Shown piece by piece: positions 14,542-30,045 of a DNA stretch of 32,000 bases. The DNA lies in contig NC_003364.1 in NCBI RefSeq assembly GCF_000007225.1, positions 900,001 to 932,000 of the forward strand, given 5' to 3'. The position numbers and the translations under genes are program-made. The notes under the pieces were generated by a model. It made no database searches, was not told the DNA's origin, and was given only the letters and a program-made list of their open reading frames with translations. Origin of the DNA: Pyrobaculum aerophilum str. IM2. Lineage in GTDB: Archaea; Thermoproteota; Thermoprotei; Thermoproteales; Thermoproteaceae. Position 1 is the first letter of the stretch, and every line of letters begins with the position of its first letter.

Positions 14542-14569
14542 CATGCACGTATCAAAGTGGATACCCCTC

Positions 14570-14699
14570 CCCCCGCCCTCTGCCACAACGGCGTCAACGC
14601 CGTAGAAGGCCCCTTGCGTGAAACACCCCCAAGAGACGCCGAATTTCCGCGGTAGGCCTCTGGTAGCGCTACTTTTACACACGCCGCCTTAATTGTCAT
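14570..14699 (-). pseudogene. 5' remnant of the long paREP2a-like gene (homolog of 22102..22947), frameshifted and truncated
   Basis: It shares the ATGACAnTTAA stop/start overlap and about 130 nt with 22805..22947. It lacks 9 nt (one VKA repeat) and 7 nt (frameshift). Homology stops about 25 nt before the ndk TATA box. Confidence 0.6.
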
Positions 14700-14994
14700 C
14701 GTTCCTGTGTGCCACCTTAATCCAGTCGTCCACAAGCTTTATCTCAGGCCTTAGGTACACTCCCTGCGGCGTGTCAAATACGTAAAATGTGGCCATTTTT
14801 TCGCCCACCTTGCACACCGCCCTTTTCTCCGTGACAAAACACGACATGGGCTTCTCCCTCCATTCCCCTTCCCACCAAAATGCGCGTCTAAGGGCGTATT
14901 CGCTGATTAGAGGCTCGGCGTATTTTTCGCCGTATTCGGCGATTGCGGCCTTTGCCATTTCGCACATTCCGTAATACAGTTCAAGCCTTTTCAC
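14689..14994 (-). CDS. small conserved protein, 101 aa, RRAFWWEGEW motif (paREP2a-like), unknown function
   Basis: GTG start conserved in both copies. I counted 9 differences over 100 aligned residues versus 22937..23242. The same domain forms the C-terminus of 22102..22947. Confidence 0.7.
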   Translation of the reverse strand: MKRLELYYGMCEMAKAAIAEYGEKYAEPLISEYALRRAFWWEGEWREKPMSCFVTEKRAVCKVGEKMATFYVFDTPQGVYLRPEIKLVDDWIKVAHRNDDN

Positions 14995-15158
14995 TAATTT
15001 GCCCTCCTCGCCCGGCAGGACGGGCCACTTAAAACATCTGCGATGCCAGTCCTTCAGCGCGGCCGTGACTTGGCTTTTCAGGTCAAGCCTCCTCCTTCTT
15101 CCTCCACTCCAGTGCGCGGAGCCGCTCGTTCTTTATGTAATCTATGGCGCGTAGCCAT

Positions 15159-15205
15159 TTGCGTTAAAATATTGCGTTAAATCTCGCTTAAGTTGTTTTT
15201 AAAAA
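15159..15205 (+). promoter_or_regulatory. candidate promoter region of the giant gene: direct repeat TTGCGTTAAA x2 plus tttttaaaaa
   Basis: A perfect 10-nt direct repeat lies at 15159-15168 and 15172-15181 (13-nt period), embedding ttaaaatatt. A second A/T box at 15196-15205 is about 18 nt before the GTG at 15219. Confidence 0.3.
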
Positions 15206-15218
15206 GGCGCGGAAATAC

Positions 15219-18200
15219 GTGGAAGAGACGCCGGGATGCATTGCGGCGGTAGAGGAGGCAGTCAAGCCGGCGGTTGTAGCCGCGGCCGGCCTGGCCGGAT
15301 ATGCAACGCTACACGACGGGCTGTACTCTACGGCCGTTGTGTCAGCGACGGCCGCGGCTGTAATACTGGCGAGAGAGGGGGCCTTTGAGAGGGCAGTGGA
15401 GTACGTAAGAAGAGCCGCCGAAGCGGCGTATGAGGCGGCCCGCGAAATATTCCAAAAGGCGAAAGTGACGTTGCAGAGGCTCTACGAGTTATTCGTTGAA
15501 GCAATTGCAAGAGCCCTTGACTACGTAAGGGCGCATTGGTTTATTATCGCGGCGGCCGGGCTAATAAGCTGGCTTGCGGCACAGCAATTGGACTATACGC
15601 TGTGGCAAGACCACGTGGCGAAATTCGCGCCGCTGATCGCCGGCGTGCCAGCATTTAAGGAGTTCAAGACAGCCCTCGGCGACAGCGCCCCAGAATTGCT
15701 CAAGGCGGCTGAGGAGGCGTTGAAGTACAGGTCTGAAGGCGCAGTGGAGAGGCTGTTTGAAGAGGCCAGAGGGGCCGTTGGGAAGAGCTCTAAGCCGTGG
15801 CCCGACTTGAGGAAGGCGGCTAGGAATGTGGAAATGTTCGGCAAAAGGGTTATAAAGCCGGAGCACGCCGCTGTGGCGTGGGCCCTATTAGAGGCCGGGC
15901 TGAAAGAGCTCAGTGGCGTGAAAGACAAGGCACTGTCTACCCTTAAAGAGGCTATGGATAAACTGTCTAAGGAAGGGGAGACGGAGATATCTGCAAAGGA
16001 GATATCAGAATTTGTGAAAAGGGCACACGACATAGCGCATCACCTTGAGCTGTTGTTTGAACAAATCACGGAAAACGCTGAGAAGTACGGTAAAGCAGAG
16101 GAGATAAGAAGAGCCTTTACCGTGACTGGGGTGGCCGAAGAGCTGGCCGAGGCGCCTAAGACCGACTTTGACAGGCTCGGCGATGCCACTCTTGCCGACA
16201 AAGTCATAGCGTTTTTTGAAAGCTTAGCAGAGGGCACTTCGTGGAGCCGCGTTGTGCTAAACGCAATGGAGAGGGGAGAGGCGTACGTGGCGTTGATTAG
16301 AACGCCGAGAAGCGCAACAGTCAAATACGGCGTCAAAGCAGAGGGAGGGGCCAGGGATAGGGCGAAGAGGCTGGGCACTCTCATCGCCCGCCTTGCCCAC
16401 TGGCTAGCTGAGCGGGGAGTGGATAAAGCCGTGATAAGATGTGAAGGCAATACAGTGAAAATTATGGTAAACGGCGAGATTGTAGCCGAAGTAGAGACGA
16501 GGGCAATCAAGGAAGAGGAAGAGAGAATAGTCTATCGCGTAAGAGGCAAATGGGCAGAGGAAGAGGGCGAAAAAGCCAAGGAGCTGGCCGCGGAAATGGA
16601 GCCTGGTAGGGCGGAGGATTACGAGCTAAGGGCACTGTTGGTTACAGATGGCGGTTATGAAGTAGAGGGCGATGTTTATGCCGCGACTACCTCCGTAGCG
16701 CAAGCCGCTTTGTACAAGCGCTTCGGCATGAAGGTGTCGTATGCGGGAGTAGGCAACTTAGCTGAAGAAGGCTTTAAGCCGTTGCTTGAAGCGAGACTCT
16801 ACGAAAAGAGAGGGGGTAAAAAAGTGGTGGAAATGATAAGGCGTGATTTAGAAGATGGCTTAAAGGCCTTGTTAGGTGACGCGAAACTGAGGGAGGAGCT
16901 TAAGGAAAAAGCGTTAAGGCTCCTCGGCGAGATAGAAATCTCAGTGCACGATGCCGACAAGGAAACTGAAGAGGGAAGACAGAGGGTAGAGGAGGCGAGG
17001 AGGAAAATAGAAGAGAGAATTGTCAAGTTCCTGACTGAGCTTCGCCTTGGCGAGAACGGCTCCGTCTGTCTTGCAAATTGCCAATTTGGCGAGCCTACGC
17101 TGACTCCCAAACACGAGCCCTACACCCGCGTAATTGCGCCTCTCATACACTACATTGCGTCAGAGGCGCCAGAGGAGGAGATAGCAAAATTCCTCGCATA
17201 TGCAGTGCTCTTCGATGGGAGCGTAAGGCGGGATCGAGTGACGCTGGCACTGGGCAACTTCCGCGTTGATGACGCGTCAAAACGCCTTCCGCTTGATATA
17301 TACGACAAGGTGGCTCTGTATATAATCCTCGCCGCGAAATACAGCGTAGGCATTAAGGGAGTGTACGTGAGAAAGGGCGAAGCTAGGATATACTTCAACA
17401 CTGAACATGCCACAAAGATGTTCGCCACTGCGTGGGGGAATCTATGCGCCTTGTGGAGGTTTAGCAGAGAGAGCGGCCTATACGCTGACCACGTCTTTAA
17501 AAAACTTGAGGGCATTAGAAAGTATGTAGAGAGTTATGTAGACAAGGTGAGGATTGAGCACATCCTCCGCGGCGATAAAGTAACCGTCGTGTTTAAAGAC
17601 GAGAGGGGGGATGAAATTGCTCACATAAACATTAGATGGGACGGCGAAAGTCTACACGCCAACTTTGAAGGCATGAGGAAGAGGGCAGAGCAGCTAGTCT
17701 CAATACTGAGCGCCATGGGCGCCAAGGTTAAGGTTAAGGAATACAGCGGAAAGTGGCGCATAGAGCTTACTACAGATTCCATCACCGCCATCCGCCGCAA
17801 GGAGTGGCTTGACGCAGTTAGGACTCTCATAGAGGAGCTACATAACAAGGACATAATTAACAAAAGGCAGAGAGAGCGGTTGTTGAATGAAATAAGCGCC
17901 GGGCCTAACGTCGTTGAGATAGCCGGCGTGGAGTTAAGCGTTATGGAGATAAGAACTGAGAAACGCAGAGGATTGATAATTATATACCATCCAAGGTCGG
18001 CAAATACCTTTGACACCGCCATGAAAACGCTTAGGAGAGCCGGCTTCGTGGAGGGGGTACACTTCACTGCTAAGAGGCCACAGGGGGGCAAATATGGCCA
18101 TGTATACATCAAGATACCTGCAGGTTTGTGGAAACTGGAGGAACTGAAGAGACAAGGCGTAGAGTGGGCCAAGAGGGCGCTTAAGCGCTTGGAAGAAATT

Positions 18201-18680
18201 GCAAAGGCAAGGGGCTTCTACGACCTACTGGAGGGGTACCTCAAGCCTGCCAGGGAGGCCGAGACCGTCGACCCTAGGGGATTAGTGGTAGAAGACGCCG
18301 AGAAGGGGATAAGGGCTGTAATAAGGGACGTAAAGGTGGTGCGGGAGGGCAACAGGTCAATGGTCGTGGTGGAGTACGAAACAAGCGGTGAGGTGAAGTC
18401 ATTCAAATTTGCTTGGAACGTAGTAACGACTAGTGGGGCCGTCATAGCCAGCATTAGGCTAAATGAAGAAAAAGCCATCGTTTTAGTCGCCCTAACGGGC
18501 GACGAGACAATAAAGAAAAAGAGGGGAAGCGTGCAACTTTCCGCTAAACATCTATTCGCCTTGGCAAGGCTTAGGGGAATTGGATGGGAGCTGTTGAGGT
18601 GGTACACAGAAGTGATGAGTGAGAAATGGCGAGATAACGGCAAAAACCCCTCTAACCACCTCGCCTCAAAAGGAGAATAG
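15219..18680 (+). CDS. giant protein, 1153 aa (paREP2b-like), unknown function
   Basis: Uninterrupted 3.46-kb ORF with purine-rich codons. Residues 734 to about 1131 are homologous to 23330..24526. No convincing enzymatic motif. Confidence 0.8.
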   Translation: MEETPGCIAAVEEAVKPAVVAAAGLAGYATLHDGLYSTAVVSATAAAVILAREGAFERAVEYVRRAAEAAYEAAREIFQKAKVTLQRLYELFVEAIARALDYVRAHWFIIAAAGLISWLAAQQLDYTLWQDHVAKFAPLIAGVPAFKEFKTALGDSAPELLKAAEEALKYRSEGAVERLFEEARGAVGKSSKPWPDLRKAARNVEMFGKRVIKPEHAAVAWALLEAGLKELSGVKDKALSTLKEAMDKLSKEGETEISAKEISEFVKRAHDIAHHLELLFEQITENAEKYGKAEEIRRAFTVTGVAEELAEAPKTDFDRLGDATLADKVIAFFESLAEGTSWSRVVLNAMERGEAYVALIRTPRSATVKYGVKAEGGARDRAKRLGTLIARLAHWLAERGVDKAVIRCEGNTVKIMVNGEIVAEVETRAIKEEEERIVYRVRGKWAEEEGEKAKELAAEMEPGRAEDYELRALLVTDGGYEVEGDVYAATTSVAQAALYKRFGMKVSYAGVGNLAEEGFKPLLEARLYEKRGGKKVVEMIRRDLEDGLKALLGDAKLREELKEKALRLLGEIEISVHDADKETEEGRQRVEEARRKIEERIVKFLTELRLGENGSVCLANCQFGEPTLTPKHEPYTRVIAPLIHYIASEAPEEEIAKFLAYAVLFDGSVRRDRVTLALGNFRVDDASKRLPLDIYDKVALYIILAAKYSVGIKGVYVRKGEARIYFNTEHATKMFATAWGNLCALWRFSRESGLYADHVFKKLEGIRKYVESYVDKVRIEHILRGDKVTVVFKDERGDEIAHINIRWDGESLHANFEGMRKRAEQLVSILSAMGAKVKVKEYSGKWRIELTTDSITAIRRKEWLDAVRTLIEELHNKDIINKRQRERLLNEISAGPNVVEIAGVELSVMEIRTEKRRGLIIIYHPRSANTFDTAMKTLRRAGFVEGVHFTAKRPQGGKYGHVYIKIPAGLWKLEELKRQGVEWAKRALKRLEEIAKARGFYDLLEGYLKPAREAETVDPRGLVVEDAEKGIRAVIRDVKVVREGNRSMVVVEYETSGEVKSFKFAWNVVTTSGAVIASIRLNEEKAIVLVALTGDETIKKKRGSVQLSAKHLFALARLRGIGWELLRWYTEVMSEKWRDNGKNPSNHLASKGE

Positions 18681-18883
18681 AAAGTTTAACACGCTTTTCT
18701 CTATAAAATGTCACTATAAATCATCTACCGCTTTCCGTAAATGGAATACGAAGACCCGATAGTTTAATAGCACTTGTTACAGAACTCACACATCACTTTA
18801 AACACCTTTACCCCTCGGCAGTCCGCAAGCTCTCTGAACCACAACACTAACGCCACTGCAACTAACGCATAAAACATGTATAC

Positions 18884-20122
18884 TTATAGAAGAGTAAGCC
18901 ATACTAGCGGCAACACTAATCCCAGCGCTGTAGTGGCTAACGCGGTATACGACGAAGTGACGTTGTCGGCAAGAGGACCTGGCGCCTCGGCAATAATCCT
19001 AATAGCCCTTAAATAATACGGCGTAGCTAAGGCGCTGTTAAGCACAACCCAGGCCACTAGAAAAGCCGCCAGCCACGGCTGCGGGTATGCCAGTATTAAT
19101 AACACAAGGAAGAGCTTAGGCCAGAAGCCTAAAAGCGGCGGCAGTCCTAAAAGCGAGAGGACGTTTAGCACATTTAACACGCTCCTCCGGGGGGGCGACA
19201 AGTCTGAGAGGTATGTGGACAAATAGCCAAATACCCCTGCCTTTGCCAAGCCGGAGGCCAATGCCTCTAATACCACTACTAAAACGGCCAAGTCCGCCGC
19301 AGACACCCTTACCCCAAAGAGATTTGGCGAGTTCGCAGGCTCTCCAAGCCACCACACCAGCGCCACTGCGGCAAGCGCATAGGACATGTGGGCAATAGAG
19401 GAGTAGGCCATGATCCTCCCCAGAGTCTTGGCTGTTAGGCCCGCCACATTTGCTACAAGCATAGAAACAAGCGCCACGATTAAAGCTATTAGGCCAACTT
19501 CCCTGGGCGCGCTGGCGCTTCTAAAAATTGACAATAAAACAAATAGGGCCGTTACTTTGCTAAACGCGGCCAGTGCCGCCGCGCCTCTCGGCGAGCTGAG
19601 GGCGTAGGCGTCAACAACCCACGCGTGAAACGGGGCAATGCCCAGCTCGAACATAAAGCCCAGTATAGTTATGTAAAGTCCCTGCGGCAACCCGGAAACT
19701 CCCAGCACGTAGCCCAGCACAATTAACACCTTGCCCACGCCTGAAAACACGAGGTACTTCGCCGCCCCCTCTACGTTCTCCCTGGCCCTCCCCATGGCCA
19801 AAAGCCCGTACACAGCCGCCGTTACTAACGCCAAGGCAATTAGCCCGTAGACTACTGGCTGTGCGGCGTAATAGACATACGCGGCGAGCACAGTTGCAAC
19901 AGCTGAGAAAGCCAGCGCTAAGCCGAATGTGCCAAGCCGCCAGTCTATAGAGAGAGAAAGCGCAATTAGCGACACAACGACGCCGATTGGCAATTTAAGA
20001 AAAGCCGACAAAATTAACAACGCCAATGAAGCGACCACTGCAATATAGCGCCCATCTATTTTTAACGCCGCCGGCGCCGCAAGCGACAACGCAAGCACTA
20101 AGTAGGCTATTAAGTCGATCAT
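18884..20122 (-). CDS. nuoN: NADH-quinone oxidoreductase subunit N
   Basis: Polytopic antiporter-like subunit. GIAPFHAWVVDAY and MAYSSIAHMSYAL motifs. ATGA overlap with nuoL. Confidence 0.85.
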   Translation of the reverse strand: MIDLIAYLVLALSLAAPAALKIDGRYIAVVASLALLILSAFLKLPIGVVVSLIALSLSIDWRLGTFGLALAFSAVATVLAAYVYYAAQPVVYGLIALALVTAAVYGLLAMGRARENVEGAAKYLVFSGVGKVLIVLGYVLGVSGLPQGLYITILGFMFELGIAPFHAWVVDAYALSSPRGAAALAAFSKVTALFVLLSIFRSASAPREVGLIALIVALVSMLVANVAGLTAKTLGRIMAYSSIAHMSYALAAVALVWWLGEPANSPNLFGVRVSAADLAVLVVVLEALASGLAKAGVFGYLSTYLSDLSPPRRSVLNVLNVLSLLGLPPLLGFWPKLFLVLLILAYPQPWLAAFLVAWVVLNSALATPYYLRAIRIIAEAPGPLADNVTSSYTALATTALGLVLPLVWLTLL

Positions 20123-21972
20123 ATTAACACGAGGAGGAGCAGTGTTACTAATATTCCAACAATGCCGTATAAGACGTACAGGCTCAAATTCCCAGTTATA
20201 AGCCTCCTCGCCCAGTTAGATACCGACTCGAATACCCCCGGCAAGACGTTGTGGTATAGGCCATCAAAGAGTCCCTTATCGAAAACCACATAGATAAACT
20301 TGGCGAACCAGGTGAATAACGACGGAAAGACTCCGTCGTATAATATGGGCAAGTAGAACCTCCTGTAGAGCACCTCCCACAACGGCCTTAGGGACTCCGA
20401 CTTAAAACCCGGCAGCCATATGTACAAGACAAAACCTGTGAGAAAACCGGCGAGGACGGCCAGCAAGGCCTCAGTGACTGGGAATTTAACCACAGCTGCG
20501 AAATAACCGCCGAGCGCTATAGTGGCCACGGCGAGGGCGGTGTAAGGTAGCCACATTACAGGATGCGCTTCGTGTACCTCCTCGGGCTCTTTCCCGTGTA
20601 TAAAAGTCAAGCCCAGCAGGCGCAAGCCGTATATCGGCGTGATGAAAAGTAATAAGTACAAGACCGGGAGAAGTAGGTCGAAGTGATACGCGTGAGCCGC
20701 CTCAAAGACGTTTTCCAATGCTAGGTCTTTTGTAATATAGCCAATAAACGGCGGTATGCCCACGAGACTGAGCATAGACAACGCCATGGCTACCGCTGTT
20801 ATTTTCATGTGCCGCCACAGCCTCCCCACATCGCCAATAAAACGCGTGCCGGCTTCGTGTATAACAGCGCCGAAGCCCATGAACAAAGACGCTTTAGACA
20901 CGGCGTGTCCCACTATGTGTAAAAATGCGTAAAATAACAAGACGGAGAGCGCTTCCTCTTCGTGCAGGCCGAGGAGGCCGGCCGCGCCTGTGGCCGCCGC
21001 TATAATGCCGAGATTGGCGGCTGTAGAGCCAGCTAGCACGAGTTTAAACTCCATTGCGCTGAGCGCTATTAACGTGGCAGTCAAAGCAGTAACTACTCCG
21101 ATCGCCATTACGATCCAGAAGTATAGCTGCGCGCCGCTCACCAGCGAAAAAATAGGCGCAGTCACAATTAGGACATAAACCCCAGCTTTAACCATAGTAG
21201 CGGCGTGTATTAGTGCGGATACGCTAGTAGGACCCGTCATGGCCGTGAGCAACCACTCGTGGAAGGGGAACTGCGCGCTTTTAGTGAACGGCCCAAGAGC
21301 AAAGAAGAGAAGCGGGATAACTCCAAGAGCCTTGAGAGACTCCGCGTTTTCAAGCCCTTTCAGCGAAACAGTCCCTGCAGTTATGAAGAAAATGGCGATT
21401 GCGATAAGGAAAAAGGCGTCGCCGAAGCGGACTGTTAAAATCGCGCGGAGGCCGGCCTTACTGGGAGTCCACCAGTAGGGCACTCCCAACACTCTCTCCT
21501 CCCTCCCGACCCACTTGTCGTACTCATCTCTATACCAGTGGCCAATTAACGCCCACGACGCCAGTCCCACCCCTTCCCAGCCCGCGAGGAGGAACCACAG
21601 ATTATCTGCGTAGACTATTATCATCATTGAAGTGGCAAAGAAACCGAAGAAGAACCAATACCAGCCAGGCCTGTAATCCCCCTCCATATATTTCACCGAG
21701 TATAGAGATATTGCGGCGACGAGCCATGCGACGAGAACTCCCATTGGAAGACTGTATTCGTTCAGCCTCACTTTTATCTCAGCGCCTATTGACTGTATCC
21801 AAGCAACGCCGTAAACCCCCGGCGATACGGCGAAATAGATATACGTAGCGAGCAACGCGGAGAGGAAAGTCCCCGTTGTTACGGCCCACGCCTTGAATTT
21901 TTCAGAGGCGCTGAAGAGGGAAATCACTGAGGCCAGTAGCGGTATGAAAATGGCAAGAAATACTACTTCCAT
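20119..21972 (-). CDS. nuoL: NADH-quinone oxidoreductase subunit L
   Basis: 617 aa. LLAGWEGVGLASWALIGHWY is the NuoL signature. A long C-terminal extension is present. Confidence 0.9.
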   Translation of the reverse strand: MEVVFLAIFIPLLASVISLFSASEKFKAWAVTTGTFLSALLATYIYFAVSPGVYGVAWIQSIGAEIKVRLNEYSLPMGVLVAWLVAAISLYSVKYMEGDYRPGWYWFFFGFFATSMMIIVYADNLWFLLAGWEGVGLASWALIGHWYRDEYDKWVGREERVLGVPYWWTPSKAGLRAILTVRFGDAFFLIAIAIFFITAGTVSLKGLENAESLKALGVIPLLFFALGPFTKSAQFPFHEWLLTAMTGPTSVSALIHAATMVKAGVYVLIVTAPIFSLVSGAQLYFWIVMAIGVVTALTATLIALSAMEFKLVLAGSTAANLGIIAAATGAAGLLGLHEEEALSVLLFYAFLHIVGHAVSKASLFMGFGAVIHEAGTRFIGDVGRLWRHMKITAVAMALSMLSLVGIPPFIGYITKDLALENVFEAAHAYHFDLLLPVLYLLLFITPIYGLRLLGLTFIHGKEPEEVHEAHPVMWLPYTALAVATIALGGYFAAVVKFPVTEALLAVLAGFLTGFVLYIWLPGFKSESLRPLWEVLYRRFYLPILYDGVFPSLFTWFAKFIYVVFDKGLFDGLYHNVLPGVFESVSNWARRLITGNLSLYVLYGIVGILVTLLLLVLI

Positions 21973-21993
21973 AGCCCTCTTTATTTCTAAAGT

Positions 21994-22006
21994 TTTTTAT
22001 ATATTG
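21994..22006 (-). promoter_or_regulatory. TATA box upstream of nuoL
   Basis: The minus strand reads aatatataaaaaa, centred about 28 nt upstream of the nuoL ATG at 21972. Confidence 0.45.
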
Positions 22007-22010
22007 TCTA

Positions 22011-22101
22011 GGCCTTTTGCGTTAGGCACCCCCGCGAAACGCCGAATTTTCTGGGCAGTTCAAAGGCCTCGGGGAGTTTAACGCGCCTGCACTCCTTAAC
22101 G
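22011..22101 (-). pseudogene. degenerate remnant of the paREP2a-long 5' module
   Basis: ggccttttgcgttaggcacccccgcgaaacgccgaatttt...aaaggcctc...ccttaacgc aligns by eye to 22840..22947 and 14610..14699. It directly abuts the nuoL TATA box. Confidence 0.45.
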
Positions 22102-22947
22102 CTAAGCGTCTCCATCGCCCCTATGCGCCACTTTTATTCTGTCTTGGTAGAGGGGTATTTTCGGCTCTAGGTACACCCCGTCCTCCCCGTAGTGTACGCT
22201 GAACTCCAGTTTTGCACTCCCCACTTGACAAAAGGCCTCATATGCCACTATGAGACACGACGCGGGCGCCCCCATCCACTCCCCGTCCCACCAAAAGGCC
22301 CTCCTCAGCGAGAAGTCAGAGGCGTATAGTGACGCCCTCCCTCCCAGCTCTCTCTTTATGGCCTTGTACAACTGGCACATTGCCACATACTCCTCAAGCC
22401 TCTTCACAATCCCCTCTATCAAGCCCATCGGCTCGCGGCCGAAACACTGCCTATGCCACTGGGCCACCGCTCTGTACAACTCCCTCCTCAACTCCCTCCA
22501 CGCCTTCTGGCTCTTAAGGGCCTCTCTGGGCGGGCTCTTCAAAAACTCCACAATCCCCCTAACACATCCCTCGGCCGTCGGCCTCTTGCACAGCCACTTG
22601 TCCACCTCAACGCCGTTTACATAAACAGCGTCTTGCGCCAGCTCAACTTCGTATTTCGCCGCCAGCTCGTAAAGCGCGTCTGCAAAATACTGCGGCAGTC
22701 TGTAGCTTCCCTCTTCCCTCTCCTCTCTCCGCTTGTAAACTGCCAGATAGCGTTTAGCGATTGCGTCGTAGGGTAGCACGTAGCGGAAATACAGGCCTTT
22801 AACGCCCCCCTCTGCCACAACGGCGTCAACGCCGTAGAAGGCCCCTTGCGTGAAACACCCCCAAGAGACGCCGAATTTGCGCGGTAAGGAAAAGGCCTCT
22901 GGTAGCGCCACTTTTACACACGCCGCCTTAACCGCCTTAACTGTCAT
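22102..22947 (-). CDS. long paREP2a-like protein, 281 aa (N-terminal module, linker and C-terminal WWDGEW domain)
   Basis: The C-terminal ~100 aa (VKRLEEYVAMC...RRAFWWDGEW...RIKVAHRGDGDA) is paralogous to the 101-aa proteins. The ATG overlaps the upstream gene's stop within ATGACAGTTAA. Confidence 0.7.
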   Translation of the reverse strand: MTVKAVKAACVKVALPEAFSLPRKFGVSWGCFTQGAFYGVDAVVAEGGVKGLYFRYVLPYDAIAKRYLAVYKRREEREEGSYRLPQYFADALYELAAKYEVELAQDAVYVNGVEVDKWLCKRPTAEGCVRGIVEFLKSPPREALKSQKAWRELRRELYRAVAQWHRQCFGREPMGLIEGIVKRLEEYVAMCQLYKAIKRELGGRASLYASDFSLRRAFWWDGEWMGAPASCLIVAYEAFCQVGSAKLEFSVHYGEDGVYLEPKIPLYQDRIKVAHRGDGDA

Positions 22948-23242
22948 CGCCCCTATACGCCACTTTAATCCAGTCGTCTATTAACTTGATTTCTGGCCTT
23001 AGGTACACTCCCTGCGGCGTGTCAAATACATAAAACGTTGCCATCTTATCGCCTACTTTACACACAGCCTTTTTCTCCGTCACGAAACACGACATGGGCT
23101 TTCCCCTCCACTCCCCTTCCCACCAAAATGCGCGCCTAAGGGCGTACTCACTAATTAGCGGTTCGGCGTATTTCCCCCCGTATTCGGCAATTGCCATTTT
23201 CGCCATTTCGCACATGCCGTAGTAAAGCTCTAGCCGCTTCAC
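22937..23242 (-). CDS. small conserved protein, 101 aa, RRAFWWEGEW motif (paREP2a-like), copy B
   Basis: Same length and same GTG start as 14689..14994. The ORF-track extension to 23320 (TTG) lies in a frame not shared with copy A, so I trimmed it. Confidence 0.7.
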   Translation of the reverse strand: MKRLELYYGMCEMAKMAIAEYGGKYAEPLISEYALRRAFWWEGEWRGKPMSCFVTEKKAVCKVGDKMATFYVFDTPQGVYLRPEIKLIDDWIKVAYRGDDS

Positions 23243-23329
23243 TAATTTGCTCCCTCCCCCGGCAGGATTGGCCACCTGAAGCATCTGCGATATCACTCCT
23301 TCAGCGCGGCCATTTTTCAAGCCGCGTGG

Positions 23330-24526
23330 ATGTTCGCGACGGCGTGGGCTGAGCTCTCGCGGCTGTGGAGATTTGGCATAGAGAATGGCCTATACGCCGA
23401 CCACATTCTTAATAAGCTTGAGGGCATTAGAAAACACGTGGAGGAGTACGCTAACAGGCTGAGGATTGAGTACACGCTGTACAGCCTCCCCGGCGTTGAC
23501 CCGTGGGTAGAGGTGAGGTTTAAGGACGAGAGGGAGAATGAGATAGCCCACATAAACATTAGGTGGTATCATAATAAGCTACATGCCTTCTTTAACGGCG
23601 CTAAAGAAAAGGCGGAAAGACTGGCCTCAATACTAAACGCATTGGGCGCCAACGCGGAGGCGAAGGAGTATGATGGAGGGTGGCGCGTAGACCTCACAAC
23701 CGACTCCATCACAGCAATACGCCGTGCGGAGTGGCTTGAGGCAGTTAGAGCCCTTGTTGAGGAGCTACACAAGAGGGGAATAGTAAACGAGGAGCAGAGG
23801 GATAGATTGCTGAAGGAGATCATCGCCGGGCCTAACACAATTGAAATCGCCGGAGTGGAGTTGAATGTTCGGCAAGAGTCCGTGGGCAAATCCAAGACGC
23901 TGGAGGTTATGTACAAACCAAGATCGCCTACCGCCTTCAACGCCGCCGTGAAGGCGCTTAGAGACGCTGGCTTTGTTGAGGGAGTACACTTCACCGCGAA
24001 AAAGCCAGAGGGCGGCGTGCAGGGATACGTATACATTAAGTTGCCTGCCGGCCTTTGGCGTTTAGAGGAGCTGAGGAGGCAGGGCGTTGATTGGGCCGAC
24101 AAGGCGCTGAGGCGCCTTGAGGAGATTGCAAAGGCGAGGGGCTTCTCCGAGATACTTGAGGAGTATCTCAAACCGGCTATAGAGGCCGAGACCGTTGACC
24201 CGAGGGGGCTGGTCGCAGAAGACGCCGAAAGGGGGATTAAGGCAGTTGTAAGAGATGTGAGGGTGGTGCGGGACGGCGACAGGCCGAGGGTAGTTGTGGA
24301 GTATGAGGTAAACGGCGAAGCGAAGTCTTTTTCTTTCATCTGGGGCGTGAGAAAGGGAGGGATAGTTATGGCAAACGTGTGGTTAGTTGAAGAAAGAGCC
24401 GCCGTTTTAGCAACCATAACGGGCGACCAGACAATAAGGGGGGAGGGGCGTAACCGGGTTCTTTCCGCTAAACATCTATTCGCCTTGGCGAGGTTCAAGG
24501 GAGTGGGCTGGGAGCTGTTGAGGTAG
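23330..24526 (+). pseudogene. 5'-truncated paREP2b-like gene (equivalent to residues 734 to ~1131 of the giant protein)
   Basis: It begins exactly at the deletion junction and has lost the promoter and 733 codons. It ends at TAG where copy A has TGG (Trp), with a second stop 8 codons later. Confidence 0.7.
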
Positions 24527-24568
24527 TACACAGAGGCGATGAAAGAATAAGAGCCCAGCGCCTCTTTC

Positions 24569-26014
24569 CTAGCCGCGGAGACTCCACAAGCGCGCAACCT
24601 CTATAGTTTTATATACATTGTCTGCGAGAGCTGTTGAAAACGGAGGCAGAAAGAACAACACTGATATAAAGGCCGTCACGACTATTGACACGAGGGCTAT
24701 ATCCACAGGGCCTTTGTCCTCGCGCCTGTGAGGGCCGAAGAACACCACGCGGATTGTGTTAAAGGCGTATATAGCGGTGACGAGCAAAACTAAGGCGTAC
24801 GGTATATAATTGAGGTAATCCGCGCCGAAGTGTTTGGCATATGCCACTGTTAGGACAATTTCTGAGACCATGCCCACCGACAGAATCCCCGCCAAGTTTA
24901 AAAAGCCGACTATGGCGGCGCCTGCCAGCTCCGGGCGCCAGCCGTATAAACCGCCCATTTTCTCAATGTCGCGGGTGTGTAAGTGCATTATGAAATACCC
25001 CGCGGTCATGAAGAGCACCGCCTTGCCCAGCCCGTGGGATAAGTAGAGCAGCGCGGCTGCTGTATAGCCGTAGGGGTTGAGGAGCGCCACGCCCAAGAGG
25101 AGGTATCCCATCTGCGACACGGTAGAATAGGCGAAGAGCCTCTTCACGTCTTTTTGTAAATAGGCCATGAGGCCGCCATATATCGCCGTAGCAATTGCGT
25201 AATAAATCAACCACTGGGCCCAGCCGCTGGGAATTACATACATGGCAATAGCCGCAATTAAATACCCCCCTATGCCCACGAGGACCGGGGATAAGAGCGC
25301 AGACAGCGGAGTGGGCGCCTCGGCGTGGACGTATGGAAGCCACATGTGTACGCCCAGCGTCGCCATTTTAATTAACGCGCCGACGAGAATGAGGAGGAAG
25401 GCCAAGGCGTCGGCCCCCAGGTTATAACTGGCGATATTCTCCGCCAATAAGGGGACGTAGTATACCTCCTTGAGATATAGGAGTATAAAGCCGGCTAACA
25501 CCAAGAAGGCCCCTATGTGAGACCAAACTAAATACATTATAGTGATTCTCACCCTGTCTCCATACCCGTAGTAGAGGATTTGAAACAGAGAGGCAATTAG
25601 GGCTATTTCAATAAACACGTAGACCATGATTAAATTCGCCGCAATAAAGGCGCCGGCTAGTCCGCCCAAGAAGAAGCCGTAAGTGAGGTAGAAAACCGCA
25701 GTGTCCCTGCCCAGCTCCTCCCCCCTGTGCTCCATATACGGAGGAGAATATAAAGCCACTAACATCCCAACCAGCGCCACAGTGAAGGCAAAGAGCCCAT
25801 TAAAGGGCAGAATCCTAAAGGCCAGTAGGTCGAAGCCGCGAAAAGAGCCCTCCACTAAATCCAAGCCGCCAAATGTTGCGTAACCTGTGACAGCGAGTAA
25901 GGGCACGAGGGCTACGGCTGAGATGTACCCCGCGAGGTAAGGAGAGCGCTTGGCGGCTACATACGCGGCAAGAGACAGCACCATTGGGATTAAAACCGTG
26001 GCTAAGATAATCAT
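24569..26014 (-). CDS. nuoM: NADH-quinone oxidoreductase subunit M
   Basis: HMWLPYVHAEAPTPLSALLS, LFAYSTVSQMGYLLLG and HTRDIEKMGGL match NuoM signatures. Confidence 0.9.
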   Translation of the reverse strand: MIILATVLIPMVLSLAAYVAAKRSPYLAGYISAVALVPLLAVTGYATFGGLDLVEGSFRGFDLLAFRILPFNGLFAFTVALVGMLVALYSPPYMEHRGEELGRDTAVFYLTYGFFLGGLAGAFIAANLIMVYVFIEIALIASLFQILYYGYGDRVRITIMYLVWSHIGAFLVLAGFILLYLKEVYYVPLLAENIASYNLGADALAFLLILVGALIKMATLGVHMWLPYVHAEAPTPLSALLSPVLVGIGGYLIAAIAMYVIPSGWAQWLIYYAIATAIYGGLMAYLQKDVKRLFAYSTVSQMGYLLLGVALLNPYGYTAAALLYLSHGLGKAVLFMTAGYFIMHLHTRDIEKMGGLYGWRPELAGAAIVGFLNLAGILSVGMVSEIVLTVAYAKHFGADYLNYIPYALVLLVTAIYAFNTIRVVFFGPHRREDKGPVDIALVSIVVTAFISVLFFLPPFSTALADNVYKTIEVARLWSLRG

Positions 26015-26304
26015 GGCTCCCGTCCAGCGGTGATGCTAGACACGTCTGTTTGTTTTGTGAGGGCGTAATTCCGGTATATCAACGCGGCCAGTATCGACGC
26101 CTCGGATACTGATACCATCACTAGGATTAGAACTCCGTAAAAGGCCAACACTGGGTTCGAGGCCGCGGCCGGCGCTAAGGCGGCAAAGGCGCCTACAGTG
26201 ACTAGCTCCAGCGATATCAATATCCTTACCAAGTTTTTAGTCACAGCTATTGAATAAATGCCGAGGACTATTAACAAGAGACCTACGACTACGGCGGGGC
26301 TCAT
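26011..26304 (-). CDS. nuoK: NADH-quinone oxidoreductase subunit K
   Basis: 97 aa, three TM helices with a conserved membrane Glu (SLELV). ATGA-type overlaps on both sides. Confidence 0.85.
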   Translation of the reverse strand: MSPAVVVGLLLIVLGIYSIAVTKNLVRILISLELVTVGAFAALAPAAASNPVLAFYGVLILVMVSVSEASILAALIYRNYALTKQTDVSSITAGREP

Positions 26305-26726
26305 ACCCTCCTAGCCACCTCAATGCTTATTACTAGTGAAATCACGGCCACCCCTATTAACAACACCACAGCAGTTATTAAATCGCCGGTGTTAACCACT
26401 AGGGCCTTGCCCGGCTGTGTGGAGAAATACGTTGCGAATAAAACGGCCGCTGTGAGGGCTAACAGCGTAGTGGCTGTGAAATACTTGCCGCCCCACCTAT
26501 GAGCCCCTCCGTACATAGCGGCTGTTATGAGAACTAAGAGCATTACAGCGCCTATATAAATTACAAATATTAGAAACGCAGAGGCGAACTGTAATAAGTA
26601 GGCGTAGTAGGCCCCCACAGCGCCTGCTGTGGCGGCGAGGCTGATAGCAGAGTAAACATTATCTCGCGAGTAGACAGTTAACAACCCGAAAAACAAAGCC
26701 GCCGAGAGGAGTAGTATATCTATCAT
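26301..26726 (-). CDS. nuoJ: NADH-quinone oxidoreductase subunit J
   Basis: 141 aa, polytopic, in the position expected for NuoJ. Shorter than bacterial NuoJ. Confidence 0.75.
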   Translation of the reverse strand: MIDILLLSAALFFGLLTVYSRDNVYSAISLAATAGAVGAYYAYLLQFASAFLIFVIYIGAVMLLVLITAAMYGGAHRWGGKYFTATTLLALTAAVLFATYFSTQPGKALVVNTGDLITAVVLLIGVAVISLVISIEVARRV

Positions 26727-26745
26727 GAGGATTTTAGTAAAGACG

Positions 26746-26761
26746 CATTTTTAAAATATTA
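26746..26761 (-). promoter_or_regulatory. internal TATA box upstream of nuoJ
   Basis: The minus strand reads taatattttaaaaatg, centred about 28 nt upstream of the nuoJ ATG at 26726, within the 100-nt nuoI-nuoJ gap. Confidence 0.4.
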
Positions 26762-26797
26762 CCGCCAGCGCCTAGTTAGTTGCGGACTTTCTCTAAC

Positions 26798-26802
26798 AAA
26801 AA
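26798..26802 (-). terminator. short oligo-T tract after nuoI
   Basis: The minus strand reads ctttttgtt about 25 nt after the nuoI stop. A weak signal. Confidence 0.2.
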
Positions 26803-26826
26803 GATATTTGTGTACTTTTTTGAGCC

Positions 26827-29576: not shown

Positions 29577-29706
29577 TTTTAATCTATATATCTCTGCCGC
29601 TCCTCGCCAGACTGCATGGGCTAAAACGCCTAGAGCGGCCATAACTTGGCTCTTCAGCCTAAGCCCCCCTCTTTTCCTCCTCCATTCCAATACGGCCGTC
29701 TATTCT

Positions 29707-30045
29707 TTAATAGCGCGGATATCTACCGCCCCTGGCGGCGCGCCGTCTTGTCCGCCTTAGCCCCGTTAACCAAAACGCAGTCCCGCGCAAATCTGCAGAC
29801 ACTTCAAAAAGCGCGATACCTCGGAGGCTCGTCGCTCTTCTCCTACCTCCGCCAGGTAACTCCTCTCGTAGGACTCGTAAGGCGTATGTAATATACATAC
29901 ACCACTGAGCCCCAGCCTCTGCTGCCACTGCGTCCATCCCCCTAAAGGCTCTTTGCGTGAGATGCCCCCAAGACACTCTAAACCTCCTCGGTAGCTCGCC
30001 CCCGGCTTTACGGCTTTAAACCCCCGACATCCCTATACTGTGTTA
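29707..30045 (-). pseudogene. fossil of a long paREP2a-like gene filling the nuoD upstream intergenic region
   Basis: gtatagggATGtcgggggtttaaagccgtaaagcc...gtgtcttgggggcatctcacgcaaagagcc aligns by eye with the start of 22102..22947. This includes the tail of a preceding 2a domain. The region is frameshifted and the remaining ORF is Arg-rich. Confidence 0.5.

What the first reader, a model, noticed from the sequence alone, without database searches (positions are those of the whole stretch)
22011..24550. A decayed copy of the module sits inside the complex I gene cluster, between nuoM and nuoL
Seen in sequence: nuoD-H-I-J-K-M run head to tail on the minus strand with 4-nt overlaps or short gaps. 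A 2.5-kb block of paREP2-like sequence (22011-24550) then separates the nuoM stop (24569) from the nuoL start (21972). nuoL-nuoN are again coupled by an ATGA overlap. A TATA-like box (aatatataaaaaa) lies 28 nt upstream of nuoL, immediately after the last repeat fragment. Inference: the block either inserted into a formerly contiguous operon, or occupies and has expanded a pre-existing inter-operon gap. Either way nuoL-nuoN must now be transcribed separately from nuoD-M, or by read-through across 2.5 kb that includes an oppositely oriented gene fragment.
Basis: partly seen in the sequence, partly recalled or inferred. Interest (0 to 1): 0.7.

Follow-up and report, generated by a model that had tools for sequence, protein, structure and literature searches.

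The report
Repeat-gene module splitting complex I operon
A 2.6-kb block of Pyrobaculum-specific "paREP2" repeat genes inserted exactly at the overlap of two respiratory complex I genes (nuoM and nuoL). Some strains of the same species still have the uninterrupted site, and the insertion copied a promoter-like sequence so that the downstream genes probably keep their own start signal.

Summary
Window 22010-24592 is paREP2 sequence lying between nuoM (stop codon 24569-24571) and nuoL (ATG 21972) of Pyrobaculum aerophilum IM2. It is a true insertion. All 18 related Pyrobaculum and Thermoproteus loci have nuoM and nuoL adjacent, overlapping in Pyrobaculum. Two conspecific contigs with 100% identical NuoL (L080, L084) carry the empty site. 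The insertion duplicated at least 31 bp of the old junction. The left copy keeps the nuoM 3' codons, changing the tail from LWK* to LWSLRG*. The right copy keeps a TATA-like box and the nuoL start. That box is ancestral: it sits inside the nuoM 3' end in the Pyrobaculum relatives, with anomalous codon choice. It was not brought by the repeat. "Decayed copy" is only partly right. The block holds an intact 281-aa paREP2a, a C-terminal-domain paREP2a, a 35-codon stub and a 398-aa short paREP2b. The short form recurs at other loci, and its ORFs show dN/dS of 0.04-0.38. Full-length paREP2b (about 1150 aa) has a LAGLIDADG-like domain that the short form lacks. Two further paREP2 insertions lie in the same cluster, one between nuoN and ndk and one upstream of nuoD. 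Transcription could not be tested.

The parts
24569..26014 (-). nuoM, filled allele of 481 aa. The C-terminus is changed from ...EIAGLWK* in the empty allele to ...EVARLWSLRG*.
   Evidence: ORF. Pfam Proton_antipo_M and best NCBIfam hit NDH_I_M. Comparison with the 478-aa NuoM of L080. The 481-aa form is found in at least 23 contigs and 36 collection blocks.
24593..24623 (-). Left copy of the duplicated ancestral nuoM/nuoL junction (AGACAATGTATATAAAACTATAGAG+GTTGCG). It still codes for the NuoM C-terminus and contains the original TATA-like box at about 24607-24619.
   Evidence: The region aligns to L080 9965-9995, which also aligns to window 21979-22009. A possible diverged continuation runs to about 24581: 10 of 15 in register, shuffle p about 0.04.
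24551..24592 (.). 42-nt junction spacer between the natural paREP2b stop and the duplicated junction. It supplies the new nuoM tail and stop. Its origin is unresolved.
   Evidence: No significant similarity to the ancestral sequence beyond the first 18 nt or so. A 19-mer from it occurs only in this same allele in metagenomes.
23330..24550 (+). Short paREP2b, convergent with nuoM. It is equivalent to residues about 733-1130 of full-length paREP2b and lacks the LAGLIDADG-like domain. In IM2 a TGG-to-TAG change at 24524-24526 ends the ORF 8 codons before the natural TAA (24548-24550).
   Evidence: Pfam PF07775, E=2e-127. 71% nt identity to window 17417-18618. C-terminal comparison. Other filled alleles keep TGG and encode 405 aa. 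The short subfamily is shown. dN/dS is 0.24-0.38.
23304..23329 (.). Junction between the short paREP2a and the short paREP2b. It is the site of the old deletion of about 2.3 kb, shared with locus L115, which removed the a/b intergenic region and the first 730 or so codons of paREP2b. A further 63-nt deletion between GCGCGGCC direct repeats is absent from L115.
   Evidence: Alignments with module 1, L092-L095 and L115.
22937..23320 (-). Short paREP2a, carrying the C-terminal PF07903 domain only. Its 5' 25 codons or so are disrupted by a nonsense change and a frameshift relative to L115. The conserved core starts at about GTG 23245.
   Evidence: Pfam E=7.5e-60. Alignment A2. 84% nt identity to module 1 (14573-15064). 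dN/dS against module 1 is 0.04. The 5' comparison with L115 was read from the sequences.
22102..22947 (-). Full-length, intact paREP2a of 281 aa. Its start overlaps the stop of the short paREP2a (ATGA).
   Evidence: Pfam E=9e-63. Family members are 277-305 aa and align end to end. 88% nt identity to L092-L094. dN/dS is 0.27-0.32.
22008..22115 (-). 35-codon N-terminal stub of a third paREP2a (METLSVKECRRVKLPEAFELPRKFGVSRGCLTQKA*). It is cut off at the right-hand insertion junction (22010|22009).
   Evidence: Alignment A2. In L092 the homologous unit runs to 82 codons, and in L091 it is a full 278-aa gene.
21973..22009 (-). Right copy of the duplicated junction, which is the putative nuoL promoter. 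The TATA-like box is at 21993-22005, centred about -27 from the nuoL ATG. Compared with the empty allele it has 8 differences (7 substitutions and one inserted A), 7 of them giving A.
   Evidence: differences at 22002, 21997, 21990, 21985, 21982, 21981, 21980 and 21978. The sequence is the same in 7 of the 8 filled contigs; L087 has one further G-to-A. The AT-rich box at -35 to -22 is shared only with nuoD and nuoJ.
18884..21972 (-). nuoL (20119-21972) and nuoN (18884-20122), coupled by an ATGA overlap. Both are intact.
   Evidence: Full-length alignment to orthologues.
14557..18904 (.). Second paREP2 module, inserted between nuoN and ndk in the same orientation. It contains a paREP2a stub, the short paREP2a (14689-14994, -) and a full-length 1153-aa paREP2b (15219-18680, +).
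   Evidence: The site is empty in conspecific contig L083 and in related genomes where nuoN is followed by ndk.
29610..29994 (-). Third, truly decayed paREP2a remnant of about 130 codons, matching family alignment positions up to about residue 190, with frameshifts and stops. It lies between the divergent gene starting at 30059 and the nuoD promoter and ATG (29555).
   Evidence: Relatives have only 60-100 nt there. It is also present in L080.

Best explanation
A compact paREP2 gene module inserted once into the 10-nt nuoM/nuoL overlap of the P. aerophilum complex I gene cluster. The module consists of a short paREP2b on one strand, and a short paREP2a, a full paREP2a and a stub on the other. 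The insertion is still polymorphic in the species.

The insertion duplicated at least 31 bp of the junction.
- The left copy lets nuoM keep an open C-terminal end.
- The right copy carries a TATA-like box plus the nuoL start. That box was already embedded in the last codons of nuoM.

nuoL-nuoN can therefore be transcribed from a formerly internal promoter. That promoter, freed from coding constraint, has become AT-richer.

The module has no enzyme of its own that could move it, because the short paREP2b lacks the LAGLIDADG-like domain of full-length paREP2b. Its genes are nevertheless conserved, and they are being overwritten by gene conversion from paralogous copies.

Shown: the insertion, its polymorphism, the duplication, the ancestry of the box, the composition of the block, and the selection signatures.
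Inferred: promoter use, adaptive AT-enrichment, gene conversion, and how the module moved.
For: Insertion.
- 18 of 18 related loci have nuoM and nuoL contiguous with no paREP2.
- L080 and L084 (NuoL 100% identical, flanks 99.5%) have the empty site. Eight other contigs with the same NuoL are filled.
- The left junction is identical in the 10 filled contigs compared. The right junction is identical in 7 of 8, and L087 has one extra G-to-A. This points to a single insertion event.

Duplication.
- L080 9965-9995 aligns to both window 24623-24593 and window 22009-21979.

Ancestral promoter.
- TATATA lies about -31 to -25 before nuoL in 9 of 11 Pyrobaculum sequences.
- The Tyr codon there is TAT in 9 of 10 relatives, against 11-51% usage in the nuoM and nuoL genes of those relatives.
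- The preceding Val/Ile/Leu codon ends in TA in 10 of 10 relatives, against 14-25% usage.
- Only nuoD, nuoJ and nuoL have an AT-rich box at -35 to -22.
- The right copy has 8 differences in 31 nt, 7 of them giving A.

Composition of the block.
- Pfam hits.
- Full-length family sizes.
- The canonical architecture is seen at other sites.
- The short paREP2b subfamily, and the deletion junction shared with L115.
- dN/dS of 0.04-0.38.

Gene conversion.
- pS between strains is 0.11-0.12 inside the block, against 0-0.011 in nuoD, nuoH and nuoM (0.037 in the short nuoK of one strain).

LAGLIDADG-like domain of full-length paREP2b.
- PF14528 scores 31-32 bits, above the 22.5 cut-off, in remote homologues.
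- D666-G667 is invariant across 40 sequences.
- The AlphaFold model shows an alpha-beta-beta-alpha-beta-beta-alpha unit at residues 652-751.
- Foldseek top hits are I-OnuI, I-PanMI, I-DmoI, the bI3 maturase and WhiA.
Against: - No transcript data exist here, so read-through from nuoJKM across the block is not excluded. No strong terminator was found (that scan is bacterial-type).
- The duplicated copies are far more diverged than expected from flanks that are 99.5% identical. The right copy differs at 26% of positions, and the distal part of the left copy at about 30%. Adaptive change is an inference, not a demonstration.
- SNPs between filled and empty strains cluster in the 2 kb left of the block: 32 of 40, p=5e-12. 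The polymorphism may therefore be old, or have been exchanged by recombination, rather than recent.
- The other insertion (nuoN|ndk) has no duplication. Instead about 41-45 nt were replaced. There is therefore no uniform insertion signature.
- The LAGLIDADG assignment rests on weak Foldseek E-values (0.015-0.2) and on Pfam hits in remote homologues, not in the window protein itself.
Confidence: 0.8

Rival explanations
1. The 2.5-kb interval is an old inter-operon gap that paREP2 sequence merely filled or expanded. On this view nuoD-M and nuoL-N were always separate units with a spacer between them.
For: nuoL appears to have had its own TATA-like box before the insertion, so two transcription units may indeed be ancestral.
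Against: There is no spacer in any relative. nuoM and nuoL overlap in the Pyrobaculum loci where the start is clear and lie about 30-50 nt apart in Thermoproteus. Conspecific empty alleles overlap by 10 nt.
Confidence: 0.02
2. The block is ancestral to P. aerophilum, and the empty alleles (L080, L084) arose secondarily. This could have happened by precise excision, or by import of an uninterrupted nuoJKM-nuoL segment from a lineage that never had the insertion.
For: SNPs cluster in the 2 kb adjoining the site, at 1.6% against 0.15% further away. Filled alleles occur in strains more divergent from the window overall (98-99% identity including the block) than the empty-site strains are. The junction copies are strongly diverged, which suggests age.
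Against: Excision by recombination between the two copies cannot regenerate ATTGCGGGGCT, which is absent from both copies. The outgroups show that the contiguous state is ancestral for the genus. Import by recombination is not excluded. If it happened, it would change only the history of the empty alleles, not the fact of an insertion.
Confidence: 0.25
3. nuoL-N are expressed only by read-through from the upstream nuo promoter(s) across the block. On this view the TATA-like box is just coding-sequence debris.
For: No clear terminator lies between nuoM and nuoL. The paREP2a genes lie in the sense orientation, have no recognisable promoter of their own, and would themselves need read-through.
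Against: There is nucleotide-level conservation of TATATA against codon preference. The box is retained and AT-enriched in the non-coding copy. It sits at -27, which suits leaderless Pyrobaculum transcripts (own knowledge: Slupska et al. 2001). Read-through would have to cross 1.2 kb antisense to paREP2b. Contig L096 places nuoD-M next to unrelated genes, although this could be a MAG chimera.
Confidence: 0.2
4. nuoL-N, bracketed by two co-oriented paREP2 modules, is a composite cassette that was moved in as one unit.
For: The repeats flanking nuoL-N are direct: 508 nt at 84% identity and 1223 nt at 71%.
Against: The two insertions segregate independently. L080 and L084 lack the nuoM|nuoL block but have the nuoN|ndk module, and L083 shows the reverse. 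The gene order nuoM-L-N-ndk is ancestral.
Confidence: 0.02

Closest known systems
paREP2a / paREP2b repeated gene families of Pyrobaculum (Pfam PF07903, PF07775). They are called 'putative transposons' in the P. oguniense genome paper (PMC3558965).
   Same: The block's ORFs are members by sequence and are annotated under these names in IM2. As reported for P. oguniense against P. arsenaticum, the copies mark strain-specific insertions and deletions and rearrangement points.
   Different: In the papers searched I found no description of these features. They are a defined three-gene module architecture, a short non-autonomous-looking subfamily, a LAGLIDADG-like domain in the long form, and an empty/filled polymorphism inside the nuo cluster.
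Free-standing homing endonuclease genes inserted between conserved genes ('intronless homing', e.g. phage T4 seg/mob genes; own knowledge)
   Same: The insertion lies between conserved genes. It is present or absent within one species. Flanking markers are more diverged next to the site. A LAGLIDADG-like domain occurs in full-length paREP2b.
   Different: The copy at this site lacks that domain. paREP2 modules sit at many unrelated sites. No cleavage site or activity is known. The LAGLIDADG fold is also used by non-nuclease proteins such as maturases and WhiA.
IS elements and transposons inserted in operons
   Same: A multi-copy element interrupts an operon, and a target duplication flanks it.
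   Different: There are no terminal inverted repeats and no transposase family hit. The duplication is 31 bp or more at this site and absent at the nuoN|ndk site. The paREP2a-side end is truncated at a different point in every locus.
Integrative elements that duplicate the 3' end of their target gene so that the gene stays intact (e.g. tRNA-gene-targeting integrases; own knowledge)
   Same: The duplication of the junction preserves both the upstream gene's end and the downstream gene's start signals.
   Different: No integrase gene is present. The repeats are diverged, not identical. The target is not a tRNA gene.
Non-autonomous deletion derivatives of autonomous mobile elements (MITE-like logic; own knowledge)
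   Same: The short module shares one old internal deletion with a copy at another locus (78% identity). It lacks the candidate catalytic domain.
   Different: Its ORFs are kept under purifying selection. That is unlike inert deletion derivatives.

Membership tests
PaRep2a (PF07903) | Sequence match to the family model above the gathering score | tested here: met
   210 bits (22102-22947) and 200.6 bits (22937-23320), against a cut-off of 25.
PaRep2a (PF07903) | Full-length architecture of 277-305 aa, with the N-terminal LPEAF..PRKFGVSWGC motif plus the C-terminal domain | tested here: met
   Met for 22102-22947 (281 aa, aligned end to end). Not met for 22937-23320 (C-terminal domain only) or for the 35-codon stub.
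PaRep2b (PF07775) | Sequence match to the family model above the gathering score | tested here: met
   426 bits against a cut-off of 20.4.
PaRep2b, long form (about 1150-1300 aa) | N-terminal helical region plus the LAGLIDADG-like unit with the invariant D-G motif (residues about 652-751 of the 1153-aa protein) | tested here: not met
   The block's ORF starts at the equivalent of residue 733. It belongs to the short subfamily of about 405 aa.
LAGLIDADG homing endonuclease (applied to full-length paREP2b, window 15219-18680) | LAGLIDADG motif ending in a conserved acidic residue and Gly, on an alpha-beta-beta-alpha-beta-beta-alpha core | tested here: inconclusive
LAGLIDADG homing endonuclease | Site-specific DNA cleavage of the empty allele | not testable with these tools
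   This needs purified protein and L080-type target DNA.
IS element / DNA transposon | Terminal inverted repeats | tested here: not met
   No inverted repeat pairs the two ends of either module.
IS element / DNA transposon | Recognisable transposase | tested here: not met
   No Pfam, NCBIfam, PHROG or PADLOC family other than PaRep2a/b was found.
IS element / DNA transposon | Short target-site duplication of constant length | tested here: not met
   The duplication is 31 bp or more at nuoM|nuoL. There is none at nuoN|ndk, where about 41-45 nt were replaced.
Integrase-type integrative element | Integrase gene and identical att repeats | tested here: not met
   There is no integrase domain. The flanking repeats are about 75% identical.
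Complex I membrane-arm genes nuoL, nuoM and nuoN | Family model match and conserved gene order | tested here: met
   Best NCBIfam hits are NuoL, NDH_I_M and NuoN, all below the curated cut-offs. Pfam gives Proton_antipo_M. The synteny nuoD-H-I-J-K-M-L-N-ndk holds in most of the 18 loci that span it.

The most novel reading that the evidence does not exclude
paREP2 modules may be endonuclease-driven selfish elements. On this reading, full-length paREP2b is a LAGLIDADG-type nuclease that cuts empty sites. The module, including short copies that lack the nuclease and are served in trans, is then copied in by recombinational repair. That would explain several observations together:
- the presence/absence polymorphisms at nuoM|nuoL and nuoN|ndk
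- the clusters of flanking SNPs, read as co-conversion or mutagenic repair tracts
- the lack of transposon ends
- the at least 10-fold excess divergence of the block, read as conversion among copies

A corollary is that the insertion forced, or exploited, an operon-internal promoter, which then evolved to be stronger.
Probability: 0.2. Interest if true: 0.7.

Novelty: new member of a known kind. Interest (0 to 1): 0.5.

Why it matters
This case shows, at single-nucleotide resolution and with the empty allele available from the same species, how an essential respiratory operon tolerates being split by a lineage-specific repeat module. The downstream genes already had a promoter-like box hidden in the upstream gene's last codons, and the insertion duplicated it.

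Filled and empty strains form a natural experiment. They can be used to test promoter use and promoter evolution in a hyperthermophilic archaeon with leaderless mRNAs.

The work also gives the long-unexplained paREP2 families a concrete anatomy:
- a three-gene module
- long and short forms
- purifying selection on the ORFs
- conversion among copies

It further yields a testable biochemical lead, the LAGLIDADG-like domain in long paREP2b.

Tried and rejected
- **PHROGs and PADLOC:** no meaningful hits for any paREP2 protein.
- **PDB sequence searches:** nothing with the 1153-aa protein or with the 40-sequence profile.
- **paREP2a structure:** the AlphaFold model is of low confidence (pLDDT 61) and Foldseek found no informative match, so its function stays unknown.
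- **Viral contigs:** they hold no paREP2b relative.
- **Metagenome scan:** a 19-mer from the junction spacer found only the same allele plus unrelated chance matches, so no donor copy was identified.
- **Sigma-70 and intrinsic-terminator scan:** uninformative for an archaeon.
- **Terminal inverted repeats:** none found.
- **Longer duplication, rejected:** I first thought the duplication ran about 85 bp into nuoL, because of a 15-nt exact match (TTCATCGCCTCTGTG) to nuoL of L005. That stretch is in fact the paREP2b C-terminal coding sequence (YTEAMKE), and a shuffle test shows no similarity beyond about 18 nt.
- **One-off deletion, rejected:** I first read the 398-aa paREP2b as a deletion unique to this site. 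The same deletion junction occurs at another locus, L115.
- **Diverged nuoN tail, not supported:** the similarity between the new and old nuoN tails is not convincing at nucleotide level.
- **Literature:** no transcript data for this locus were found.
- **Exact-protein look-ups:** these failed for the 398-aa ORF, P0112 and P0139.
Full report
**What is there**

The window comes from Pyrobaculum aerophilum IM2. The 1153-aa, 281-aa and 398-aa ORFs are 100% identical to proteins that NCBI names paREP2b, paREP2a and paREP2b of that strain, on a 2,222,430-bp record.

On the minus strand the complex I genes run in this order:
- nuoD (true ATG about 29555)
- nuoH, nuoI, nuoJ, nuoK
- nuoM (24569-26014)
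- then, after a gap, nuoL (20119-21972) and nuoN (18884-20122), which share an ATGA overlap

The interval between nuoM and nuoL contains, reading down the minus strand:
- the antisense of a 398-aa paREP2b ORF (23330-24526, plus strand; Pfam PF07775, E=2e-127)
- a 127-aa paREP2a ORF (22937-23320; PF07903, E=7.5e-60)
- a 281-aa paREP2a ORF (22102-22947; E=9e-63), whose ATG overlaps the previous stop
- a 35-codon N-terminal paREP2a stub (22008-22115)

**It is an insertion, and it is still polymorphic**

A scan of one genome per species with NuoL returned 18 Pyrobaculum and Thermoproteus loci. I mapped the window's proteins onto them.
- In every case nuoM is immediately followed by nuoL. The two genes overlap by a few nucleotides in Pyrobaculum and lie 30-50 nt apart in Thermoproteus.
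- In most of them nuoN is followed by ndk.
- None has any paREP2 match there.

A look-up of contigs that encode exactly the window's NuoL gave conspecific alleles.
- L080 (GCA_038741535.1) and L084 (a Logan assembly) have a 478-aa nuoM overlapping nuoL by 10 nt. This is the empty site.
- Eight other contigs run from nuoL into the paREP2a stub. These are filled.
- The filled-allele NuoM (481 aa) occurs in at least 23 contigs and 36 collection blocks.
- The left junction is identical in the 10 filled contigs compared. The right junction is identical in 7 of 8, and L087 has one further G-to-A. This points to a single insertion event.

The pre-existing-gap alternative is excluded.

**Anatomy of the junction**

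- Empty allele: ...GCAGACAATGTATATAAAACTATAGAGATTGCGGGGCT|ATGGAAGTAG... Here nuoM ends ...EIAGLWK*, overlapping the nuoL ATG.
- Filled, left side: identical through CTATAGAG, then GTTGCGCGCTTGTGGAGTCTCCGCGGCTAG. NuoM now ends ...EVARLWSLRG*.
- Filled, right side: the paREP2a stub ends ...CAAAAGGCCT, followed by AGACAATATATAAAAAACTTTAGAAATAAAGAGGGCT|ATGGAAGTAG.

Positions 9965-9995 of L080 align to both sides of the block. At least 31 bp of the junction are therefore present twice.

A further 15-18 nt of the left copy look like a diverged continuation. They match 10 of 15 in register, with a shuffle p of about 0.04. Nothing beyond that is similar.

By this comparison the block is 22010-24592, or 2583 bp.

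**The TATA-like box is ancestral**

It is in fact the duplicated nuoM 3' end. The evidence that it predates the insertion is as follows.
- In 9 of 11 Pyrobaculum sequences the last codons of nuoM contain TATATA, about 31-25 nt before the nuoL ATG.
- The Tyr codon there is TAT in 9 of 10 relatives, although TAT makes up only 11-51% of Tyr codons in the nuoM and nuoL genes of those relatives.
- The preceding Val/Ile/Leu codon ends in TA in 10 of 10 relatives, against 14-25% usage. Its first base varies.
- This pattern suggests selection on the nucleotides themselves. The species are related, so the counts are not independent.
- Within the window, only nuoD, nuoJ and nuoL have an AT-rich box at -35 to -22. 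The translationally coupled genes nuoH, nuoI, nuoK, nuoM and nuoN do not.

From my own knowledge, Pyrobaculum mRNAs are mostly leaderless, with a TATA box about 27 nt upstream of the start codon (Slupska et al. 2001). The position therefore fits a nuoL promoter that existed before the insertion.

The non-coding right copy differs from the empty allele at 8 positions in 31 nt. Seven of those differences give A, including several in the -12 to -7 region. I read this as release from coding constraint plus selection for a stronger promoter. That is an inference.

The degree of divergence is not explained by the 99.5% identity of the flanks. The right copy differs at about 26% of positions, and the distal part of the left copy at about 30%. 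This remains a real puzzle.

**History of the polymorphism**

Between the window and the empty-site contig L080, 32 of the 40 left-flank differences lie in the 2 kb next to the block (24593-26600). That is 1.6% against 0.15% further away (binomial p=5e-12). These differences are mostly synonymous.

Two readings fit. The polymorphism may be older than the genome-wide divergence of these strains. Alternatively, one allele may have been exchanged by homologous recombination.

Secondary excision cannot have produced the empty allele. Its ATTGCGGGGCT sequence is absent from both copies, and it matches the outgroups.

**Is it a "decayed copy of the module"?**

Only in part.
- Full-length paREP2a proteins are 277-305 aa. 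The 281-aa ORF aligns end to end with them, so it is intact.
- The same architecture recurs at unrelated sites in other strains: paREP2b divergent from a short paREP2a, then a long paREP2a, then a stub or a full third paREP2a. It is seen in L090, L092-L095 and L091.
- Window 23314-22010 is 88% identical to L092 7633-8935.
- Full-length paREP2b proteins are about 1150-1300 aa. The 398-aa ORF corresponds to residues about 733-1130.
- Short paREP2b proteins of 405-410 aa, starting at the same MFATAW, occur in several paralogous copies at 75-79% identity.
- One such locus, L115, has the same a/b deletion junction. The window has only a further 63-nt deletion between GCGCGGCC direct repeats. The large deletion therefore predates the nuo insertion, and the block is a member of a compact module lineage.

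The ORFs carry signatures of purifying selection:

| ORF compared | dN/dS |
|---|---|
| short paREP2b vs L115 | 0.24 |
| short paREP2b vs orthologous alleles L097 and L096 | 0.28, 0.38 |
| short paREP2a vs module 1 | 0.04 |
| long paREP2a vs L092 and L090 | 0.27, 0.32 |

Genuine decay is limited to four things:
- a TGG-to-TAG change 8 codons before the natural paREP2b stop, present in IM2-type alleles but not in L096, L097, L100 or L102
- a disrupted 5' end of the short paREP2a
- the loss of the a/b intergenic region
- the stub

None of the block's genes has a recognisable promoter box. The paREP2a genes lie in the sense orientation downstream of nuoM, so they could be expressed by read-through.

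**Unusual evolution of the block**

Between filled strains, synonymous differences in the short paREP2b reach pS of 0.11-0.12. The adjacent nuoD, nuoH and nuoM have pS of 0-0.011, and the short nuoK of one strain has 0.037. A 10-fold or greater excess with identical junctions is best explained by ectopic gene conversion from paralogous paREP2 copies. This is an inference.

**What paREP2b may be**

Several lines point to a LAGLIDADG-like unit in the long form.
- In a 40-sequence alignment of long paREP2b homologues, D666-G667 is invariant within a motif reading FLAYAVLFDGSV or YATAIAGDGxV.
- Four remote homologues score above Pfam's cut-off for LAGLIDADG_3 at the aligned position.
- An AlphaFold model (pLDDT 77.6) shows an alpha-beta-beta-alpha-beta-beta-alpha unit at residues 652-751, followed by similar repeats.
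- The best Foldseek matches in the PDB are all LAGLIDADG proteins: I-OnuI, I-PanMI, I-GzeII, I-DmoI, the bI3 maturase and WhiA. The statistics are weak, with E of 0.015-0.2.
- The window protein itself does not hit the Pfam model.

I rate this as a good lead, not a demonstration. I found no paper in the held library that links paREP2b with LAGLIDADG. One genome paper calls PaREP2b a putative transposon.

The nuo-site copy lacks this region, so it cannot be autonomous if that domain drives mobility.

Other tests gave the following.
- There are no terminal inverted repeats.
- There is no transposase or integrase.
- The paREP2a-side end is cut at a different point in each locus.
- The paREP2b-side end coincides with the paREP2b stop codon.

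The way the module moves is therefore unknown.

**Context**

Two more paREP2 insertions lie in the same gene cluster, both co-oriented with the first.
- A 4.35-kb module with the full-length paREP2b lies between nuoN and ndk (14557-18904). It is absent in conspecific L083 and in the relatives. There it replaced about 41-45 nt and gave nuoN a new six-residue tail of the same length. There is no duplication.
- A frameshifted paREP2a remnant lies upstream of nuoD (about 29610-29994).

The two polymorphic insertions segregate independently, which excludes a composite cassette.

One MAG contig, L096, follows the window from nuoD to codon 33 or so of the long paREP2a. It then continues into unrelated genes. 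This is either a repeat-mediated rearrangement that physically separates nuoD-M from nuoL-N, or an assembly chimera.

**Verdict**

The finding is a well-resolved, polymorphic insertion of a known Pyrobaculum repeat-gene module into an essential operon. It includes an instructive duplication of an embedded promoter-like box.

It is a new instance of a known kind of event, of moderate interest. The paREP2b LAGLIDADG lead and the conversion signature are the most novel by-products.

Transcription of nuoL-N, the function of paREP2a, and the insertion mechanism all remain to be tested.

Noticed in passing
window 14557-18904: A second paREP2 module (stub, short paREP2a, and full-length 1153-aa paREP2b) is inserted between nuoN and ndk. 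The site is empty in conspecific contig L083 and in related genomes. The insertion replaced about 41-45 nt, including the last 6 codons of nuoN (IAYLLL* became VWLTLL*, the same length), with no target duplication. Eight SNPs against L083 cluster within 100 nt on the ndk side.
   Followed up: partly
window 29610-29994: A frameshifted, stop-containing remnant of about 130 codons of a long paREP2a sits between the divergent gene starting at 30059 and the nuoD promoter. It matches family alignment positions up to about residue 190. Relatives have only 60-100 nt there. The long nuoD ORF (TTG at 29690) is an artefact, and the real ATG is at about 29555.
   Followed up: partly
window 17172-17471 (residues 652-751 of the 1153-aa paREP2b): This is a LAGLIDADG-like unit. 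D666-G667 is invariant in 40 homologues. Pfam LAGLIDADG_3 scores above its cut-off in remote homologues. The AlphaFold topology is alpha-beta-beta-alpha-beta-beta-alpha. Foldseek top hits are meganucleases, a maturase and WhiA. The link was not found in the searched literature.
   Followed up: partly
window 23300-24550 against L096, L097 and L102: Between strains that share the identical insertion junctions, the paREP2 block differs at pS of 0.11-0.12. The adjacent nuoD, nuoH and nuoM differ at pS of 0-0.011, and the short nuoK of one strain at 0.037. This suggests ectopic gene conversion among paREP2 copies.
   Followed up: partly
L096 9140-13446 (GCA_036754085.1, DAIOPL010000011.1): This contig matches the window from nuoD through the block to codon 33 or so of the long paREP2a. 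It then continues into unrelated genes (Ribonuc_L-PSP, isochorismatase, EF-1alpha) instead of nuoL. It is either a rearrangement at the repeat or a MAG chimera. The break lies within 8 nt of the point where the window's own stub is cut (ACGCA motif).
   Followed up: partly
window 24524-24526: A TGG-to-TAG nonsense change lies 8 codons before the natural paREP2b stop. It is present in IM2-type alleles (window, L098, L099, L101, L103). It is absent in L096, L097, L100, L102, L104 and L105, which encode 405 aa.
   Followed up: yes
window 26748-26761 and the nuoI-nuoJ gap of about 100 nt (26727-26826): nuoJ has a fully AT box (TAATATTTTAAAAA) at -35 to -22. The cluster may therefore consist of three transcription units: nuoDHI, nuoJKM and nuoLN.
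   Followed up: no
L003 13157-13705 and L004 7933-8484: In Pyrobaculum sp. WP30 and one MAG, ndk alone is inverted relative to nuoN. In the other relatives it is co-oriented.
   Followed up: no
L002 (P. oguniense TE7) upstream of nuoH; L014 3241-3660: In P. oguniense there is no match at 40% identity or more to nuoD or to the two upstream genes before nuoH. In MAG L014 only the last 140 codons of nuoD are present. These may be further rearrangements at the 5' end of the cluster, or assembly problems.
   Followed up: no
L091 136-972: In another P. aerophilum-type assembly, a full-length third-type paREP2a (278 aa, N-terminus METLSVKKC like the window's stub) lies directly upstream of carA, in the same orientation, and overlaps its start. 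This is another case of a paREP2a end abutting a host operon.
   Followed up: no
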